Source: a virus (taxonomy: Duplodnaviria; Heunggongvirae; Uroviricota; Caudoviricetes). Taken from it: 42,980 bases of DNA. Shown here one piece after another: positions 10,957-40,550 of this stretch. The number at the start of each line of letters is the position of its first letter. The stretch's first letter is position 1. A model generated the notes under the pieces. It had not been told where the DNA came from, made no database searches, and was given only the letters and a program-made list of their open reading frames with translations. Both the position numbers and the translations under genes were made by a program. Location of the stretch: IMG/VR virus record IMGVR_UViG_2778261642_000006; one strand, 5' to 3'.

Positions 10957-11256
10957 ATGACACAAGCAAGCTACAGCAAGCCAACACAGCGAGAAATTGA
11001 TCGCGCAGAAACAGATTTACTCATCAACCTGTCAACGCTTACCCAGCGCGGTCTGGCAAATATGATTGGCTGTCATGAATCGAAGATAAGCAGAACGGAC
11101 TGGAGATTTATTGCTTCGGTCTTGTGTGCTTTCGGAATGGCATCAGACATCAGTCCGATTAGCAGGGCTTTTAAGTATGCGCTTGATGGACTCACCAATA
11201 AAAAACGCCCGGTGTGCAAGACCGAGCGTTCTGATCAAATACAAATGGAATTTTAA
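10957..11256 (+). CDS. cII: CII transcriptional activator
   Basis: 99 aa; C-terminus …LTNKKRPVCKTERSDQIQMEF matches recalled lambda CII …LTNKKRPAATERSEQIQMEF. Confidence 0.9.
   Translation: MTQASYSKPTQREIDRAETDLLINLSTLTQRGLANMIGCHESKISRTDWRFIASVLCAFGMASDISPISRAFKYALDGLTNKKRPVCKTERSDQIQMEF
11198..11229 (-). terminator. OOP-like antisense RNA terminator (to) within the cII 3' end
   Basis: Minus strand reads CGCTCGG-tcttgcaca-CCGGGCG followed by TTTTTTATT, the same position as lambda to/oop. Confidence 0.5.
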
Positions 11257-11278: not shown

Positions 11279-11551
11279 ATGCGAAACAAAGGCTTTAATC
11301 CACCTGATACACACAAAGAAGTTAAGCGTTTGCGCTTCCTTCGTTCCATTGATGAAAGAACTCAAATCTCTTTTGTGAAAGTTGCCAGAACTGAGCTTCT
11401 GAAGGCTGAGGCGAGGGCGTTGCTCCCGTCTCTACCAAAAGAGGAGGGATATAGGCTCATTCCAAACGCATTTCTGGAAAAGCTGCTCAAAGAAGACATA
11501 TCCGTAAGTCAGTTTAACGATGTTCTTAAGGTCTTTCGTCAAGGCAGGTAG
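11279..11551 (+). CDS. Hypothetical protein between cII and the replication initiator
   Basis: 90 aa from MRNKGFNPPDTHKEVKRLRFL…; the longer track ORF (from 11111) overlaps cII. Confidence 0.45.
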   Translation: MRNKGFNPPDTHKEVKRLRFLRSIDERTQISFVKVARTELLKAEARALLPSLPKEEGYRLIPNAFLEKLLKEDISVSQFNDVLKVFRQGR

Positions 11552-11553
11552 TT

Positions 11554-12501
11554 ATGAGCAATACAGCAAAAATCTACGATTTCAGCGCCGCACACGAGCG
11601 CAGGAGCAACAGGATGGAGAACCAGAAAACTGGTTACATTCCGTTGTACCGGAGCATTCTGAAACAGTCATGGGCGAAAGATGTTTATCTTCGCACCCTG
11701 TGGGAAAACCTTCTCCTGAATGCCGCCAGAAAGCCATACAAAGCGAATTTCAAAGGTCATGAATGGCATCTGCAACCCGGTCAACTGGTTGTGACAGCAG
11801 CTGATTTAGGTCTTCAGTTATGCGACAGGCATGGCAAGCCGGCAAGCCGTGATCAGGTTGAGCGGATGCTTCAGGTTTTTGTGAAAGAGGGGATGATCTC
11901 CATTGATGGAGAGAAGCAAAAAGGTCGTGTGATCACCATCACAAATTACCATGAATATGCTCAAAAAATGGACGATTCACCCGCACATGAAGCCGCACAA
12001 ACAACCGCACATGATGCCGCACATGATGAAGCCAGTAATGGCGCGGCATTCAGCGTACATGCCGCACATGAAAGCGCACATGAAGCCGCACAAACAACCG
12101 CACATCATGAACAAGAAGGTATTAACAAGAATATAAATAATACCCCCCTACCCCCCAATGGGGGAGGCGATGGGCAGGTTAAACCTGAACGTCGCAAGGC
12201 AGAACGCATCGACTACGAATCCTTCCTGAACGCCTACAACACCGAAGTCGGTGACAGACTTCCACACGCTGTTGCGGTCAACGAGAAACGCAAACGCCGC
12301 CTGAAGAAAATCATCCCGCAACTGAAAACGCCAAACGTGGACGGTTTCAGAGCGTATGTCAGGGCGTTTGTGCATCAGGCCAAGCCGTTTTACTTCGGAG
12401 ACAACGACACGGGCTGGGTGGCAGATTTTGATTACCTGCTGAGGGAGGATTCGTTAACGGGAGTTCGGGAAGGGAAGTTTGCAGACAGGGGGATTGCATG
12501 A
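11554..12501 (+). CDS. Replication initiator (lambda O / P22 gene 18 analogue)
   Basis: 315 aa; position after cII; contains the iteron array and its repeated [10 protein letters not shown] peptide; stop overlaps helicase start (ATGA). Confidence 0.75.
11975..12165. repeat. Putative origin of replication: CCGCACATGA-type iterons, AT-rich tract, C6/G5 inverted repeat
   Basis: At least 8 copies of (C)CGCACATGA(A/T)G within ~130 bp, then aagaatataaataata and cccccctaccccccaatggggga. Confidence 0.6.
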
Positions 12502-13874
12502 AACAGGATATCGAAGCGAGCGTTATCGGTGGCCTGCTGATTGGTGGATTAACACCAATTGCCAGTGACGTTCTGGCAACGCTTGAGCCGGAAGCGTTTT
12601 CAATTCCGCTCTACCGGAAAGCCTTCGAGGTTATCCGCAAGCAGGCGCGAAACAGAAATTTAATCGACGCGCTGATGGTTGCCGAGGCGTGCGGAGAGGA
12701 ACATTTCACGTCAATCCTGATGACCAGCAAAAACTGCCCGAGTGCCGCAAACCTGAAGGGATATGCCGGAATGGTCGCGGATAATTATCACCGCCGTCTG
12801 GTGCTGGAAATCATGGATGAAATGCGTGAACCAATTCAGAGCGGAACCATCGACGCATCGAGTCAGGCGATGGATGAACTTGTAAAGCGTCTTTCAGCCA
12901 TCAGAAAGCCCCGTGACGAGGTTAAACCTGTACGGTTAGGGGAAATCATCACTGACTACACTGACACGCTTGACAGGCGTCTGAGGAACGGAAAAGAGTC
13001 AGATACCCTGAAGACCGGAATCGAAGAACTTGACGCCATCACCGGAGGGATGAACGCAGAAGACCTGGTGATAATCGCCGCTCGTCCTGGTATGGGGAAA
13101 ACCGAGCTGGCGCTGAAGATTGCCGAAGGCGTTGCAAGCCGTGTTATTCCTGGTTCTGACGTCCGGCGCGGAGTATTGATTTTCTCGATGGAAATGAGCG
13201 CATTGCAGATTGCAGAGCGAAGCATCGCCAACGCCGGGAGGATGTCGGTTAGCGTGCTGCGAAATCCTGCATCGATGGATGACGAAGGCTGGGCGCGCGT
13301 TGCTAACGGCATGAGTCAGCTTGCAGATTTGGATGTATGGGTGGTCGATGCCTCGCGGTTATCGGTCGAAGAAATACGCTCAATCGCAGAACGGCACAAA
13401 CAGGAAAATCCAAACCTCTCACTCATCATGGCGGATTATCTTGGCCTGATTGAGAAGCCGAAAGCAGACCGCAACGACCTCGCAATTGCTCACATCTCCG
13501 GAAGCCTGAAGGCGATGGCGAAAGACCTGAAAACGCCTGTTATCTCCCTGAGTCAGCTTTCGCGCGATGTTGAGAAGCGACCAAACAAACGCCCGACAAA
13601 CGCAGATTTGCGTGATTCAGGAAGCATTGAACAGGACGCAGACTCAATCATCATGCTCTATCGGGAAGCAGTATATGACGAGAACAGTAGCGCCGCGCCA
13701 TTTGCTGAAATCATTGTGACAAAAAACCGTTTTGGCTCACTTGGTACGGTTTACCAGCGGTTCTGCAACGGACACTTTGTTGCATGTGACCAGGATGAAG
13801 CCAGACAGATTTGCACAGCATCAAATGCACCTGCTGCGCGTGGCAGACGATATGCACAAGGGGCTGACGTATGA
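12498..13874 (+). CDS. Replicative DNA helicase, DnaB-like
   Basis: 458 aa; Walker A ([12 protein letters not shown]) and DnaB-family motifs (…[17 protein letters not shown]…[13 protein letters not shown]…). Confidence 0.9.
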
Positions 13875-19612: not shown

Positions 19613-19687
19613 GGGTCAGTCGTATAAAGGTCATTACGGAAGGCTGTTAACCTTCTTATCGTGGTTCGAGTCCACGCTGTCCCGCCA
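19613..19687 (+). tRNA. tRNA-like gene, anticodon GUU (Asn) by manual folding
   Basis: Acceptor GGGTCAG/CTGTCCC (1 mismatch), weak D-stem, anticodon arm GAAGG-CTGTTAA-CCTTC, T-arm CGTGG-TTCGAGT-CCACG, discriminator G, CCA. Confidence 0.5.
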
Positions 19688-19692
19688 AATAT

Positions 19693-19768
19693 GCTGGTTT
19701 AGCTCCAATGGTAGAGCAGTCGCCTTGTAAGCGAATGGGTAGCGGTTCAAGTCCGTTAACCAGCACCA
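19693..19768 (+). tRNA. tRNA, anticodon UGU (Thr) by manual folding
   Basis: 76 nt; acceptor GCTGGTT/AACCAGC, D-arm GCTC…GAGC, anticodon loop CTTGTAA, T-loop TTCAAGT, discriminator A, CCA. Confidence 0.6.
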
Positions 19769-32331: not shown

Positions 32332-32977
32332 AGGTGTAACAAATGCTGCCAGCGGGATACTTGGTGGAATAGGTGCCAATTCTGCGAGCAAAGAGTACAA
32401 AAAAGCTAATGACAGGCAGCAAAACCTTCAGGAGCAAATGTATCAGCAGCAGATAGCGTTTGGAAAACCTTATCGTGAAGTTGGCGAATCAGCTTTACCA
32501 CGTTTGCAAAAGCTTGCTGGCATTCCTATTGATCGAAATAAATTATTAGGAGACTACTTTAATTCGCAAGAATTCAAACTCCTAAATGATCAGGCTCGTT
32601 ATAGTGGGCTTGCATCTGCTGAAGCTACAGGCGGTCTTGGGTCAACGGCTACTGGAAATATGCTGGCTTCTATTGCCCCTCAATTAGGCCAGCAATATCT
32701 TTCCATGAAGACAGCAGAGCAGCAGGATATGTATAACCAGTTAATGGGGTTAACGAATGTTGGGTTAACTGCTGCTGGTATGGGTAGTGCGGCATCGGCA
32801 AATAACTCAAATGTTTTAACGTCACTTATAGGTGAATCAGGGCAAATCAGGGGGGCGCAAAAAGCCTTACCATGGCAGACGGCAGCCAGTGCTAACTCAT
32901 CATTAGGTAATGGCGCATCTCAGGATGTTAACTCTTTCACTAACATGTTTGGTGGATTTTTAGGAGGATTATTCTGA
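32315..32977 (+). CDS. Ejection (internal virion) protein, gp7 position
   Basis: 220 aa from [13 protein letters not shown]…; Gly/Ala/Ser/Gln-rich; GGGGG RBS; positional analogy to P22 gp7. Confidence 0.55.
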   Translation: MGGAIKGVTNAASGILGGIGANSASKEYKKANDRQQNLQEQMYQQQIAFGKPYREVGESALPRLQKLAGIPIDRNKLLGDYFNSQEFKLLNDQARYSGLASAEATGGLGSTATGNMLASIAPQLGQQYLSMKTAEQQDMYNQLMGLTNVGLTAAGMGSAASANNSNVLTSLIGESGQIRGAQKALPWQTAASANSSLGNGASQDVNSFTNMFGGFLGGLF

Positions 32978-34314
32978 TGGCTTATAGTATTGGCAGCCCA
33001 TTAAATCTGATGTCATTAGTTCCTGACTTCAGACTGGAAGGATTGAAAGAAGCTCAAACCTTTGCCACGACACAGCAAGGTATAGCGCAGGGAATAGATA
33101 ACCAGCGGGCTATTCGACAGGATGCCAGACAGCAGGAATTCTATAAAGCTATGAATGAAACTCCTCCTGAACAAATAGCTTCTCTGCGTAGAAAATTCCC
33201 TGAGTTTACTCAGGCTATACAACAGGAGTTAGGTATTCAGAGTGCTGAGCATTCAGCATTTGTTAATTCAGCTTTAAATAAAATATCAATTGCTGCATCT
33301 ACAGGAAATCCAAATGAAATTGCAAATGCTCTGAATAGCAACAGCGCAGCATTATTAAGTCTTGGTGTGAGTAAGGATGATGCATGGCAGCTTTATCAAC
33401 AGGATCCGGCCAGGTTTAATAGTCTGTTAAATGCTAGCCGCCTTGCCACTCTGCCTATGGATAAACAGTTTGATGTGCAGCATCAACGCGATCAGCTTAA
33501 TGAGACAATCCGCAGCAATAAAGCTGGGGAAGGTTTACAGGCGCAAAGCATTGCTGTTAGCCGTGAAAACTCCCTGCGCACTGCTGGAGGTGCTGTTCCT
33601 GCATCTGTTAAAGAATATCAATATTTCAACAGCCTGTCTCCAGAGCAACAAAAGACATATCTTCGTGTTCGAGGCCGTCCTGATGCTGGCGGGGAGAATG
33701 TTGTGCAACTGGCAGATGGCAGAACGGTAACGGTTGGTAAGAAGCTTCACGGCGCTGGTGCTAACGCGTTCTACGAAGGAATAGACAACGAGGGCAATAT
33801 GATTCGCGTCCCCGCCAGTTCTATTGCTGCTCCGGCTACATCGGCAGCTAATGCGCAGAATTACGAAATGAAGAAAGATCTTGATGCAATTTCTGGCGCA
33901 TCAATTGACGATCTTGGCTTCATGACAGGTATTACAGGTTCTTCAGGTTCTTTTGCTCTTGGTGCAGATATTCGTAGCCGGGCATCTGGTGTTGAGGAGA
34001 GGAGGCTATACAACGCTGCACAGCGAATCATGGGCAAAATGCAAAATCAGGGGATTGCAGCAGCCCGAGATATGGGGGCATCTGGCATCAACACCGAAGC
34101 AGAGGCTAATAGGTATTTTCAGGGTATGCCAAAGCCTGATTTCTCAAGTCCTGAAGCGCTGCAACAATCAATGCGCGACATTCAGCAATATACCGACAAT
34201 TACAACCAGCAATATAACGTTAATGTTGGTAAATCTCAGCGGCAGCAATCTCAACCTACACAGGTATCACAGCCAGCAGCCAGCAGTAACTTTTCTTCAC
34301 TATGGGGTGATTAA
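32977..34314 (+). CDS. Ejection (internal virion) protein, gp20 position
   Basis: 445 aa, Gln/Ala/Ser-rich; size and order as P22 gp20. Confidence 0.6.
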
Positions 34315-37898: not shown

Positions 37899-40550
37899 AT
37901 GACAGACATTACAGCCAATGTTGTAGTGAGTATGCCTTCGCAACTCTTCACTATGGCGCGTTCTTTTAAAGCCGTAGCCAATGGCAAAATTTATATCGGT
38001 AAAATTGACACTGACCCGGTAAATCCTGAAAACCGGATTCAGGTTTATGTGGAGAACGAAGACGGCTCTCACGTTCCTGTATCGCAGCCAATCATCATTA
38101 ACGCTGCCGGATATCCTGTATATAACGGACAGATTGCCAAATTCGTTACTGTACAGGGCCATTCTATGGCTGTTTATGATGCGTATGGTTCGCAGCAGTT
38201 CTATTTTCCAAACATTCTGAAATATGATCCTGATCAGTTTAAACAAGAACTAGAGAATAAATTTAACAATGGTTCAACTCCATCAATTATAAATTATAAG
38301 TACGGTCTTCCAGAAGAAGTAGACGGAGCAACACAAAGGACGCTACAGGATAAACTTGATGACCATGTAAATGTTCGCGATTTTGGTGCAAAAGGGGATG
38401 GCATTACTGACGATACAGACGCAATAACAAGTGCCATCATTTACTGCGCATCTAACGGAAAACGCCTGAAGTGGGATTCTGGTGTGTATTTGATTAGCCG
38501 CATAAAATGCGGCGGGGATAATTATAACTATGACTGGGTAGCTGATGGCAAGGTTGTCTTAAAGTCAACCGCAAAAGAGCCTCTTGGCCCAAACTGGATT
38601 GATGATTATTTCATAAGACTCGAAGGTGGAGATGCCACGCCAATTGACTATAATTCAACAATAAATCCTGGTGACACATCAATATCAATTAACTCAGCAT
38701 ACTCTGTTGATGCAGGCGATATAATTATGATTCATGGCAATCGCTTAATTCAGACAGATAATAGAGGACAGGCTTGTGAAGGTGAAATGCATGTTGTTAC
38801 TGCTTTTGATAATGCAACAAAAAAAGCGGAGATATCAGGTGCATTTTATTTTTTCTACTCTGCGAGCAATGATTACTCAACGACCGTAACAGCATCTGTA
38901 TCCGGAGGTGAATTCTCATTTGGTAATGATGCAACATTAACAAAACAATACAATCAGGTAAAAGTAACAGGTGTCACCGGAGCTAACGCCGGAACATCAA
39001 GATACATAACTCATTGGGATTACGACACTAAAACAGCAAAATTTGAATATGCTCAGGGACCATTCCCGTTTAAACCATCTGTTGGAGACGTGTTTAAAAT
39101 CACAAGAAAGGCAAATATATATAAAAGAAAACCATGCTACGGCAGAATTGTTGGTGATTTCAATTTTGAAAGACCTGTCACGCAGAACGCATCTCCTGGT
39201 GATTTGGGGTTCCGTGGTCTTGTGATAGATGGCGCTGTTGATATGCATATAGAAGGAATAAAACTAATCGGCTTTTCAGAAACTGGAATTTTTCTTGAGT
39301 CATGCTACAGAACGAAAATAATAGAACCATATATTGAATACTCAAACCGTGCATATGATTTAACAAACGGCACTGGTTATGGTGTTGAAATATACAATAG
39401 CAGCTATTGCACAGTCGTGGATATGATAGCATTTGCTTGCAGGAGGGGGCTTGATGTAAGCGGGACTCAAATGGTATCACTGTATAATAACATTATAAAT
39501 CCAACGATGATGGGTGGTGGAACTGCATATGATGGAGTTAAATTTTTCCCTGATGGCGATACAAGAAATTCATGTTGCGGTGGACACGGCCCATCATACG
39601 AAACAACTTTTACAGGCGGCAATTCAGTCAATTTGTATTATGCTGGTGTAATACGCGGATTAAATGAAGTGTATGATGGAATGAACGCCAGGGGATTTAG
39701 CGGCCCGGCTCCTTTTTTTGTAAGATATAGTGGTGGTGGGTTCACGATTCAGAACTGTAATTATATTGATGGTTTTACTGAGATGTCTTTGCCATACAAC
39801 TTGAGGTACAAACCTGTGAATGCAACTCAACGTAATCACAGACCTCTTGTTTTTATTGAAACAACTCTGGCACAGACAGACAGAAACTCTTACTATAAAG
39901 AACTTCCTGTTGTTATTAAAAATAATACCGCAAGGACTGTTCTCAAGGGCTTTTTACGTTTTGAGGTTAATGATGGCCTCACCCCTCTAATCCAAAATAT
40001 TTATTTTGGTGGTAATTTATGTATGGCGAACCCAGAAACATCAGACTCTGTATCAGGGCAAACAGAGGCAGTAATGGTTTATTCATCTGTTCCTGGTGCA
40101 ATAATTGTTCGAAATTTCCATGATCTTGGCGGTAACAGAATTGTTCCTGTTGGAGCAGGATACAGATACTGCGGTATGTTCAACACGCCAGATGGAATAG
40201 CAGGAACAATAGTTCAACCAGACGGAAAATATCTAATAACACTTGAAGCCAACAAATCTACAAGTATCCTTGTTGGTGGATACGTACCATGTGTTCGCCT
40301 TGATATGCACGACATACTTGATATTCATGGGGTAATTGCAGTTGGTGTTCTTATTCATCGTGGTGAGGCAATTGATTTTTCTCCTTTAAAAGAAATTAAT
40401 AAGCAAAATGTTGTATTGAAAACCGGAGTTCTTTCAGATAATGATGGTGATGAAAATAACTTAAATATTTCGTTTGACTTTGCAACCATATATTTAAGCA
40501 ACAAGATGCCAAATAAGATTCAACTATCTATTGAAGTATCAGGAGTGTAA
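37899..40550 (+). CDS. Tailspike protein: P22-type head-binding domain plus long divergent beta-helix receptor-binding domain
   Basis: N-terminus [59 protein letters not shown]… matches recalled P22 gp9 N-terminus; 883 aa total. Confidence 0.9.

What the first reader, a model, noticed from the sequence alone, without database searches (positions are those of the whole stretch)
11975..12165. Iteron array and AT-rich tract inside the replication initiator gene
Eight or more CCGCACATGA-type repeats (encoding the repeated [10 protein letters not shown] peptide), then an AT-rich stretch and a C6/G5 inverted repeat, resemble a lambda-style origin inside the O gene.
Basis: partly seen in the sequence, partly recalled or inferred. 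Interest (0 to 1): 0.35.

Follow-up and report, generated by a model that had tools for sequence, protein, structure and literature searches.

The report
Replication origin inside phage initiator gene
This is almost certainly the replication origin of a P22-like E. coli prophage, sitting inside its own initiator gene as in phage lambda; that layout is textbook, though the short, same-direction repeats are an unstudied version of the initiator's binding sites.

Summary
Window 11981-12109 holds eight in-frame 12-bp units with the core CCGC(A/G)CAT. They form two blocks of four, all on the + strand. Next come a 37-nt tract of 78% A+T (12106-12142) and C6-C6-G5 with the palindrome CCCCCAATGGGGG (12152-12164).

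All of this lies in the linker of a 315-aa Phage_rep_O initiator (11554-12501), just upstream of a DnaB-like helicase gene.

- The repeats always accompany this N-terminal winged-helix domain.
- They are conserved as DNA rather than as peptide. A third-codon-position C is among the best-conserved bases, while the first base of the same codon is nearly random.
- The repeat subtype (A or G at core position 5) tracks residue 100 (Asp or His) in the predicted recognition helix in 49 of 49 loci.
- The N-terminal-plus-repeat module is joined, within the AT tract, to at least three different right-hand modules. Here it is the P22/HK97 type, which P22's record annotates as rep_origin.

It differs from lambda and P22 in one respect. 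The sites are 8-nt head-to-tail direct repeats, not ~18-bp inverted repeats.

Nothing is shown experimentally. It is an ordinary new member of a known kind and is present in about 5% of complete E. coli genomes.

The parts
11554..12501 (+). O-type replication initiator gene (315 aa) that contains the origin
   Evidence: The ORF is. Pfam Phage_rep_O matches aa 20-132 at E 3.4e-15. The gene is 98% identical to 'replication protein O' of CUS-3, JEP4, Gally and about 50 Stx2a phages.
11611..11949 (+). N-terminal winged-helix DNA-binding domain of the initiator (aa 20-132). The predicted recognition helix is aa 99-111, nt 11848-11886.
   Evidence: AlphaFold2 model: H44-56, H82-88, H99-111, and a beta-hairpin wing at 115-129, with pLDDT 76-89 over aa 31-130. 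Foldseek matches are weak (E >= 0.007) but mostly winged-helix DNA binders such as MarR, CodY, ArsR, CRP and ORC. Residues 82 and 100 co-vary with the repeat subtype.
11981..12028 (+). Iteron block 1: four 12-nt units, with cores CCGCACAT, CCGCACAA, CCGCACAT, CCGCACAT
   Evidence: The equivalent block of 3 or 4 units is present in 49 related prophage loci.
12029..12061 (+). Conserved 33-nt spacer between the blocks (GAAGCCAGTAATGGCGCGGC...), with a degenerate GCGTACAT at 12053-12060
   Evidence: The distance from the last unit of block 1 to the first unit of block 2 is 45 nt in the large majority of the loci scored, under a heuristic block finder that mis-scored a few loci including the window itself. 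The spacer consensus ..CCAGTAATGGCGCGGC.. is conserved. Its function is unknown.
12062..12109 (+). Iteron block 2: four 12-nt units, with cores CCGCACAT, GCGCACAT, CCGCACAA, CCGCACAT
   Evidence: Units 2-4 repeat units 1-3 of block 1 exactly over 31 nt.
12106..12142 (+). AT-rich tract, 78% A+T and A-rich on the top strand: the presumed DNA-unwinding element. It also contains the mosaic junction at about 12127-12142.
   Evidence: The least stable 40-mer of the operon starts at 12104. GC is 27.5% with positive AT skew. BLAST breakpoints fall at query 574-584. See also the alignment with HK97, P22, Mulock and lambda.
12143..12164 (+). C6-TA-C6-AAT-G5 element with the palindrome CCCCCAATGGGGG (12152-12164). 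It is the positional counterpart of the lambda palindrome.
   Evidence: The same element lies inside the rep_origin annotated in P22, in HK97 and in L125 and L136. Other right-hand module types carry other inverted repeats with stems up to 10 bp at this position.
12165..12501 (+). C-terminal domain of the initiator, of the P22 gp18 / HK97 gp54 type. It is presumed to contact the phage helicase.
   Evidence: From window 12127 on it is 95% identical in DNA to HK97, ST104, HK544 and BTP1, and 67% identical to P22. See the protein alignment. In the records inspected (CUS-3, HK97, P22) it is followed by a DnaB-like helicase gene.
12498..13874 (+). DnaB-like replicative helicase gene (458 aa), the partner of the initiator
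   Evidence: Pfam DnaB_C at E 9.5e-78 and DnaB N-terminal domain at E 7e-13. It is the homologue of P22 gene 12 and HK97 gp55.

Best explanation
This is the theta-replication origin of a P22-like E. coli prophage, embedded in the linker-coding part of its own O-type initiator gene.

Proposed mechanism; every step is inferred and none is shown experimentally:
1. The initiator's N-terminal winged-helix domain binds the eight head-to-tail CCGC(A/G)CAT units, arranged as two blocks of four. Residue 100, at the start of the recognition helix, probably reads core position 5.
2. The resulting nucleoprotein complex destabilises the adjacent A-rich tract at 12106-12142, which is the least stable DNA of the operon.
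3. The C-terminal domain, of the P22 gp18 / HK97 gp54 type, brings in the phage's own DnaB-like helicase, encoded immediately downstream. This takes the place of the lambda P-plus-host-DnaB route.
4. The C5-C5-G5 palindrome belongs to the right-hand, helicase-side module. Its role is unknown.
5. The repeated AH-rich peptide is largely a by-product of the DNA repeats lying in a tolerant inter-domain linker.
For: (a) Gene identity and context: Phage_rep_O plus a DnaB-like helicase downstream of cI/cro/cII.

(b) Architecture: the arrangement is the same as the annotated ori-lambda iterons (PMC3349717: four 18-bp iterons plus a 38-bp high-AT tract at 39034-39160 inside O) and the annotated P22 rep_origin in gene 18. 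The right half is homologous to P22 and HK97.

(c) Association with the domain: in 49 prophage loci from many Enterobacterales genera, with N-terminal identity of 61-87%, the domain is always followed by in-frame 12-nt units. Most loci have 3+3 or 4+4 units.

(d) DNA-level constraint: in 339 units the core C at codon position 3 scores 1.87 bits, while the first base of the same codon scores 0.26 bits. The usual drop in conservation at third codon positions, 0.9 against about 1.5 bits in the flanking coding DNA, disappears in the repeat region, where it is 1.33-1.35 against 1.33-1.44.

(e) Concerted evolution: units are nearly uniform within a genome, either CCGCACAT or CCGCGCAT/CCGAGCAT. The subtype matches Asp or His at residue 100 in 49 of 49 loci, and residue 82 likewise, with at least 5 switches on a tree of the domain. 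Residue 100 is the second residue of the predicted recognition helix.

(f) Modularity: the same N-terminal-plus-repeat module is joined to lambda-type, 'HWNSPEAWEEFL'-type and P22/HK97-type right halves, with the junction in the AT tract.

(g) The AT tract is the least stable 40-mer in the operon.
Against: There is no experimental evidence for this origin or for binding of this initiator to these repeats. The P22 rep_origin annotation is itself 'by similarity to lambda'.

The units are direct repeats with an 8-nt core and no inverted copy. Lambda iterons, by contrast, are 19-bp imperfect inverted repeats bound by O dimers (PMC7466680). The binding mode therefore cannot simply be carried over from lambda.

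The A/G difference at core position 5 is a synonymous Ala codon change. The subtype switches look like exchange of a cassette spanning aa ~75-125 plus the repeats. The residue-100 association could thus reflect physical linkage rather than direct base readout.

The palindrome alone is not statistically remarkable.
Confidence: 0.85

Rival explanations
1. The repeats are only a protein feature: a repetitive Ala/His-rich flexible linker between the two initiator domains, generated by slippage. They have no role as DNA, and the origin lies elsewhere or consists only of the AT-rich/C5-G5 part.
For: All units are in frame and encode x-A-H-x. Unit number varies between close relatives, which suggests slippage. 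The A/G core difference is synonymous.
Against: The best-conserved base of the unit is a third-codon-position C whose codon encodes A, T, P, S or G. His is nearly always CAT and Ala only GCA or GCG, uniform within a genome. The peptide differs widely between relatives ([16 protein letters not shown] versus AHNTALKPAHGE) while the DNA core persists.
Confidence: 0.05
2. The repeats are bound by the initiator but act mainly as a regulatory or titration array, for example autoregulation of O translation or transcription, copy-number control by handcuffing, or exclusion of related phages. They would not be the site where replication starts.
For: Lambda iterons on a plasmid inhibit lambda-type replication (PMC3349717). 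Two of the six iterons of Stx phages are weakly bound yet still required (PMC7466680). The two-block layout with a conserved spacer has no lambda precedent.
Against: The repeats directly adjoin the least stable DNA of the operon and an inverted repeat, in the position of the annotated lambda and P22 origins. No other candidate origin was noticed. This rival is compatible with, rather than exclusive of, an origin function.
Confidence: 0.06
3. The repeats are recognised by a different protein, either a host factor or the small unknown-function ORF just upstream of O, and not by the initiator.
For: Binding was not tested. An uncharacterised ORF of about 90 aa lies between cII and O.
Against: The repeats travel with the O N-terminal domain across hosts from Escherichia to Xenorhabdus, and across different upstream genes such as the antirepressor or DNA-binding protein in Yersinia and Klebsiella phages. 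Their subtype tracks residues in the O winged-helix. No DnaA box lies near.
Confidence: 0.03

Closest known systems
ori-lambda inside gene O of phage lambda (four iterons plus an AT-rich tract plus a palindrome; O N-terminal domain binds, C-terminal domain recruits P-DnaB)
   Same: The origin lies inside the initiator gene between the Phage_rep_O N-terminal domain and the C-terminal domain. The order is repeats, then an A-rich AT tract, then an inverted repeat. It is transcribed from the early rightward operon. Counting the two arms of each lambda inverted repeat as separate sites (my inference), both carry eight monomer-size sites, 4 x 2 half-sites in lambda and 8 units here. The N-terminal-plus-iteron module and the C-terminal module are exchangeable (PMC3349717, PMC7466680).
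   Different: Lambda iterons are 18-19-bp imperfect inverted repeats. Here the units are 8-nt cores in head-to-tail orientation with a 12-nt period, arranged in two blocks separated by a conserved 33-nt spacer. The partner here is a phage DnaB-like helicase, not a P-type loader. The palindrome sequence is unrelated.
P22 gene 18 origin (annotated rep_origin NC_002371 32840-32984) and the equivalent region of HK97 gp54
   Same: The right half is the same: an A-rich tract ending in ATACCCCC..ACCCCC..GGGGG, the same type of C-terminal domain (95% DNA identity to HK97, 67% to P22), and a DnaB-like helicase gene next.
   Different: P22 and HK97 have other N-terminal domains and other iterons that are dyad-symmetric, for example TTTACC..GGTAAA in P22 and TTAGCC..GGCTAA in HK97. 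The left part of the AT tract also differs.
Klebsiella phage Mulock and Yersinia phage vB_YenM_210.17 O genes, and 47 related prophage loci found here
   Same: They have the same N-terminal domain family (74-82% aa identity) and the same CCGCACAT repeat blocks, spacer and CATCATGAACAAGAAGG junction.
   Different: Their right half is lambda-type: AAAAGATCTTCGTCCGAGAATTCTGACGAATCC, a lambda-like C-terminal domain ending ..NTDW..GV.., and a P-type loader gene.
Phage L gene 18: six imprecise 11-bp repeats (TGTCCAACGGA) proposed as its origin (Zaworski et al. 2020, PMC8022706)
   Same: Short-period repeats lie inside an O-like initiator gene of a P22-like phage and are proposed as the origin on sequence grounds.
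   Different: The repeat sequence is unrelated and the initiator only distantly related. I did not analyse that locus here.
Iteron origins of theta plasmids (pSC101, R6K, P1, F), recalled from my own knowledge of the field
   Same: These have head-to-tail direct repeats bound by winged-helix initiators next to an AT-rich unwinding element.
   Different: Plasmid iterons are about 17-22 bp and usually lie outside the rep gene. The initiator family is different. This is a functional analogy only and was not tested here.

Membership tests
Lambdoid-phage origin embedded in an O-type initiator gene (broad class) | The host gene encodes a Phage_rep_O-type initiator in the early rightward operon, followed by a helicase or helicase-loader gene | tested here: met
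   Pfam PF04492 at E 3.4e-15. A DnaB-like helicase gene follows. cI, cro and cII lie upstream.
Lambdoid-phage origin embedded in an O-type initiator gene (broad class) | An array of repeated sites lies in the linker-coding region between the N- and C-terminal domains | tested here: met
   Eight units at 11981-12109, corresponding to aa 143-186, lie between the Pfam domain (aa 20-132) and the C-terminal module.
Lambdoid-phage origin embedded in an O-type initiator gene (broad class) | An AT-rich, easily unwound tract lies directly downstream of the repeats | tested here: met
   12106-12142 is 78% A+T and holds the least stable 40-mer of the operon.
Lambdoid-phage origin embedded in an O-type initiator gene (broad class) | The repeat type goes with the N-terminal domain type and is independent of the C-terminal or partner type | tested here: met
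   49 loci share the N-terminal family and repeats but have at least 3 right-hand modules. HK97 and P22 share the right half but have other iterons.
Lambdoid-phage origin embedded in an O-type initiator gene (broad class) | The initiator binds the repeats, and the fragment supports initiator-dependent replication | not testable with these tools
   This needs EMSA or footprinting and a plasmid ori assay. No paper on this origin was found in the held library.
ori-lambda type in the strict sense (lambda, 933W, P27; P22 and HK97 have the same site geometry) | The iterons are roughly 18-19-bp imperfect inverted repeats, each bound by an O dimer | tested here: not met
   All eight cores are on the + strand, and no reverse-complement copy exists within 11900-12200. 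The repeat finder reports no inverted pair. The units are 12-nt-period direct repeats.
ori-lambda type in the strict sense (lambda, 933W, P27; P22 and HK97 have the same site geometry) | An inverted repeat lies to the right of the AT-rich tract | tested here: inconclusive
   CCCCCAATGGGGG is present and conserved in P22, HK97, L125 and L136. As a single 6-bp stem, however, it is reached by 20 of 200 shuffles.
P22 gp18 / HK97 gp54-type right-hand origin module | A-rich tract ending in the C5..C5..G5 element, followed by a gp18/gp54-type C-terminal domain and a DnaB-like helicase gene | tested here: met
   95% DNA identity to HK97 from window 12127 to 12501. The element aligns with the P22 annotated rep_origin. 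The helicase is identified.

The most novel reading that the evidence does not exclude
In this reading the initiator family assembles on DNA differently from lambda O. Winged-helix domains would bind head-to-tail to 8-nt cores every 12 bp, in two blocks of 3-4 separated by a fixed, conserved 33-nt spacer that may bind another factor or set a loop. A single recognition-helix residue, Asp100 or His100, would read core position 5 as A or G. That would make this family a natural, repeatedly used specificity switch for origin recognition in lambdoid phages.
Probability: 0.3. Interest if true: 0.45.

Novelty: new member of a known kind. Interest (0 to 1): 0.25.

Why it matters
An origin inside the O gene is textbook for lambdoid phages, so the main value is annotation. 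This replication module occurs in about 5% of complete E. coli genomes, in CUS-3/Kapi1-like phages and in about 50 sequenced Stx2a phages. In the records whose features I saw it is labelled only as 'replication protein', with no origin marked.

Two smaller points could interest replication specialists:
- The binding sites are short direct repeats rather than the inverted-repeat iterons of lambda, P22 and HK97, which implies a different assembly geometry for a homologous initiator domain.
- The perfect Asp/His-100 versus A/G association across 49 loci gives a cheap, testable hypothesis for how origin specificity is read and switched.

The AT tract is also a clear example of a mosaic joint placed at a functional boundary.

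Tried and rejected
- Rfam at gathering thresholds on the whole window found only two tRNAs elsewhere and no RNA family at the locus.
- The promoter/terminator scan found no promoter-like site in the origin. Two weak 5-bp 'terminator-like' hits on the - strand inside the repeats (12091-12074, 11982-11970) are consistent with chance.
- No DnaA box (TTWTNCACA) lies within the O gene or near it.
- A sequence search of PDB chains with the initiator gave no hit at E <= 1. Foldseek hits are weak and only indicate a winged-helix fold.
- The viral-contig scan with the single N-terminal protein returned only 99-100% identical copies, which were useless for conservation tests. The genome-contig scan with a 3-sequence alignment gave the informative set.
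- A literature search for the motif string returned unrelated papers. The Eru-typing papers on Stx phages (PMC8044961, PMC8951638) classify the neighbouring genes but do not analyse origins.
- I tried to isolate residue 100 as the sole specificity determinant. Sister-pair comparison shows the switches involve a cassette of changes across aa ~75-125, so linkage cannot be excluded.
- Database protein hits could not test the A/G subtype out of sample, because the difference is synonymous and few His-100 proteins include the linker.
- I considered a lambda-like dyad within or between units. Only a trivial CATG or GCA-N5-TGC is present in some units, and it is not conserved in relatives.

Full report
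**What is in the sequence**

Window 11554-12501 (+) is a 315-aa ORF. Its residues 20-132 match Pfam Phage_rep_O at E 3.4e-15. It is preceded by cI (minus strand), cro and cII (Pfam Phage_CII, E 2.4e-35) and followed, with a 4-nt overlap, by a 458-aa DnaB-like helicase gene (DnaB_C, E 9.5e-78). The window as a whole is a P22-like prophage of E. coli; the closest records are Kapi1 and CUS-3.

Inside the ORF are eight 12-nt units that start at 11981, 11993, 12005, 12017, 12062, 12074, 12086 and 12098. Their cores are CCGCACAT (five units), CCGCACAA (two) and GCGCACAT (one). All eight are on the + strand and in the same reading frame. A degenerate GCGTACAT lies at 12053. A 31-nt stretch occurs twice, at 11982-12012 and 12075-12105.

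Seven of the eleven exact CCGCACA sites of the 43-kb window lie here. Eight matches at up to one mismatch fall in 125 nt, where my estimate from the window's background is about 0.13.

A 37-nt tract follows at 12106-12142. It is 78% A+T with 21 A against 8 T on the top strand. The 40-mer starting at 12104 is the least stable of the whole cII-O-helicase operon and lies in the top 0.18% of the window.

Next come C6 (12143-12148), C6 (12151-12156) and G5 (12160-12164), which contain the palindrome CCCCCAATGGGGG.

**How common it is, and where the mosaic joint lies**

The gene is 98% identical to the 'replication protein O' genes of CUS-3, JEP4, Gally, TL-2011a and about 50 Stx2a-converting phages. 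The origin segment is present at 80% coverage or more in 272 of 5,426 complete E. coli genomes, annotated only as 'replication protein'.

A more sensitive BLAST splits the gene at query position 574-584, which is window 12127-12137, inside the AT tract:
- HK97, ST104, HK544, BTP1 and others share only the downstream part, at 95% identity; P22 shares it at 67%.
- Klebsiella phage Mulock and Yersinia phage vB_YenM_210.17 share only the upstream part, at 75-80% identity.

Reading these loci shows what the two parts are. Mulock and the Yersinia phage have the same repeats, the same spacer and the same CATCATGAACAAGAAGG junction. They then continue with the lambda-type AAAAGATCTTCGTCCGAGAATTCTGACGAATCC palindrome, a lambda-like C-terminal domain and a P-type loader gene.

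HK97 and P22 have quite different, dyad-symmetric iterons. They share the same ...AAATACCCCC..ACCCCC..GGGGG element and C-terminal domain as the window, followed by a DnaB-like helicase gene. The RefSeq record of P22 annotates exactly this stretch of gene 18 (32840-32984) as rep_origin, 'similar to phage lambda'. The lambda record annotates four 'ori iteron' sites inside O.

**Is the repeat array a DNA element or only a repetitive peptide?**

A genome-contig scan with a small alignment of the N-terminal domain returned 53 prophage loci. They come from Escherichia, Enterobacter, Citrobacter, Klebsiella-related genera, Yersinia, Xenorhabdus, Brenneria, Sodalis, Pantoea, Tatumella, Morganella and others, at 61-87% amino-acid identity.

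In all 49 usable loci the domain is followed by in-frame 12-nt units. Most loci have 3+3 or 4+4 units. The distance between the last unit of block 1 and the first of block 2 is fixed at 45 nt in nearly all of them, and the spacer is conserved.

A position matrix of 339 units gives three results:
- The two best-conserved bases are a C at codon position 3 (1.87 bits) and the following G (1.88 bits).
- The first base of that same codon is nearly random (0.26 bits), and the codon encodes Ala, Thr, Pro, Ser or Gly.
- His is almost always CAT.

In the 60 nt of ordinary coding sequence just upstream, third positions are much less conserved than first and second positions (0.9 against about 1.5-1.6 bits). 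In the repeat region this contrast vanishes (1.33-1.35 against 1.33-1.44). The encoded peptide also differs widely between relatives while the DNA core stays. This is the signature of selection on the DNA sequence. The AH-rich peptide is mostly its by-product in a tolerant linker.

**Link to the initiator's DNA-binding domain**

Within a genome the units are nearly uniform. In 19 loci they are CCGCACAT and in 30 loci CCGCGCAT/CCGAGCAT. This subtype matches residue 100 of the initiator in 49 of 49 loci: Asp with A, His with G. Residue 82 matches as well: Ala against Ser/Thr/Leu.

On a neighbour-joining tree of the domain built without these two columns, the subtype changes at least five times. 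An AlphaFold2 model gives a winged-helix fold with helices 44-56, 82-88 and 99-111 and a beta-hairpin wing at 115-129. It used 22 sequences and has pLDDT 76-89 over residues 31-130. Residue 100 is therefore the second residue of the predicted recognition helix, and residue 82 is the first residue of the preceding helix. Foldseek hits to the PDB are weak (E >= 0.007), but many are to winged-helix DNA binders, alongside ribosomal proteins.

There is a caveat. Sister-pair comparisons show that the switches come with a cluster of changes across residues ~75-125. They therefore look like exchange of a cassette containing the helix-turn-helix, the wing and the repeats. The association is what functional coupling predicts, but physical linkage could also produce it. 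The A/G difference is itself a synonymous Ala codon change.

**Modularity**

The same N-terminal-plus-repeat module is joined to at least three right-hand modules, recognised by their C-terminal ends..NNTDWI.GV.. (lambda-like)..HWNSPEAWEEFL, and ..[16 protein letters not shown] (P22/HK97-like).

Each right-hand module type brings its own AT-rich continuation and its own inverted repeat. The perfect-stem scan finds significant stems for two types:
- 10-bp stems, ATCTAATAAT/ATTATTAGAT, in the Xenorhabdus loci.
- 9-bp stems, ATTAAATAC/GTATTTAAT, in the Citrobacter-type loci.

The lambda-type right halves carry the imperfect palindrome read directly. The scan scores that palindrome at chance level because it is imperfect. 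The window's type carries C5/G5.

The order of repeats, AT tract and inverted repeat is therefore a conserved architecture. The AT tract is also the recombination joint between an origin-recognition module and a helicase-recruitment module. This mirrors what is established for lambda. There the origin lies in the middle of O and consists of iterons plus an AT-rich tract, and two iterons plus the AT tract suffice for unwinding (PMC7466680; PMC3349717).

**Most likely mechanism**

All steps below are inferred and none has been shown experimentally.
- The N-terminal winged-helix domain of the initiator occupies the eight units.
- The resulting complex opens the adjacent A-rich tract.
- The P22/HK97-type C-terminal domain brings in the phage-encoded DnaB-like helicase.

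I put this at 0.85. The rivals are lower: a purely protein-level repeat (0.05), a mainly regulatory or titration array (0.06, and not exclusive of an origin function), and recognition by another protein (0.03).

**Comparison with what is known**

As an origin embedded in an O-type initiator gene it meets every sequence-testable feature of the class. It does not meet one feature of ori-lambda in the strict sense, a feature shared by P22 and HK97: inverted-repeat iterons of about 18-19 bp. Its sites are 8-nt cores in head-to-tail orientation with a 12-nt period, and no reverse-complement copy exists in the region.

A comparable short-period array, six imprecise 11-bp repeats, has been proposed as the origin in gene 18 of phage L (PMC8022706). 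So even this variation has precedent. I found no paper in the held library and no rep_origin annotation for this particular repeat family in the records whose features I saw. That is absence in those sources only.

**Verdict**

It is an ordinary, widespread member of a textbook kind of element, and the score is low. The residual interest lies in the direct-repeat site geometry and the Asp/His-100 versus A/G association, both of which are easy to test.

Noticed in passing
window 11202-11232 (- strand): A strong hairpin plus T-run lies antisense to the 3' end of cII (12 pairs, then TTTTTTATT). Its position and sequence resemble the oop terminator annotated in P22 and known in lambda, so an oop-like antisense RNA is probably encoded here.
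   Followed up: no
window 19613-19768 (+): Two adjacent tRNA genes, tRNA-Asn(GTT) and tRNA-Thr(TGT), lie in the late-regulatory part of this P22-like prophage.
   Followed up: no
window ~11280-11551 (+): An ORF of roughly 90 aa lies between cII and O, in the place of P22 orf48 and HK97 gp53. It has no Pfam match.
   Followed up: no
window 12029-12061; the same position in L002, L003 and L086-L134: The 33-nt spacer between the two repeat blocks (..GCCAGTAATGGCGCGGC..) keeps its length and much of its sequence across genera. The block-to-block distance is fixed at 45 nt in nearly all loci. No explanation was found, such as a host-factor site or a looping constraint.
   Followed up: partly
proteins P0001-P0073 (homologues of window 11554-11973): Most database homologues returned for the N-terminal query are 'partial' proteins ending at about aa 150-210, apparently on contigs that stop in the iteron/AT-rich region. 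Some gene calls read the repeats in another frame (P0017, P0018, P0039). P0009 switches to unrelated sequence inside block 1. Near-identical relatives differ in unit number (P0003 and P0005 have 3 units in block 1). The origin appears to be an assembly break point and a recombination hotspot.
   Followed up: partly
window 11588-11595 (+): One extra core-like site, CCGCACAC, lies near the 5' end of the O gene, about 390 nt upstream of the array. It may be chance.
   Followed up: no
L093 (Scandinavium MAG), right of the AT tract: This locus has a P22-type C-terminal domain but lacks the C5..G5 element. In its place is a different 7-bp-stem inverted repeat, GTCATCT-GA-AGATGAC, so the inverted repeat is kept while its sequence is not.
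   Followed up: partly
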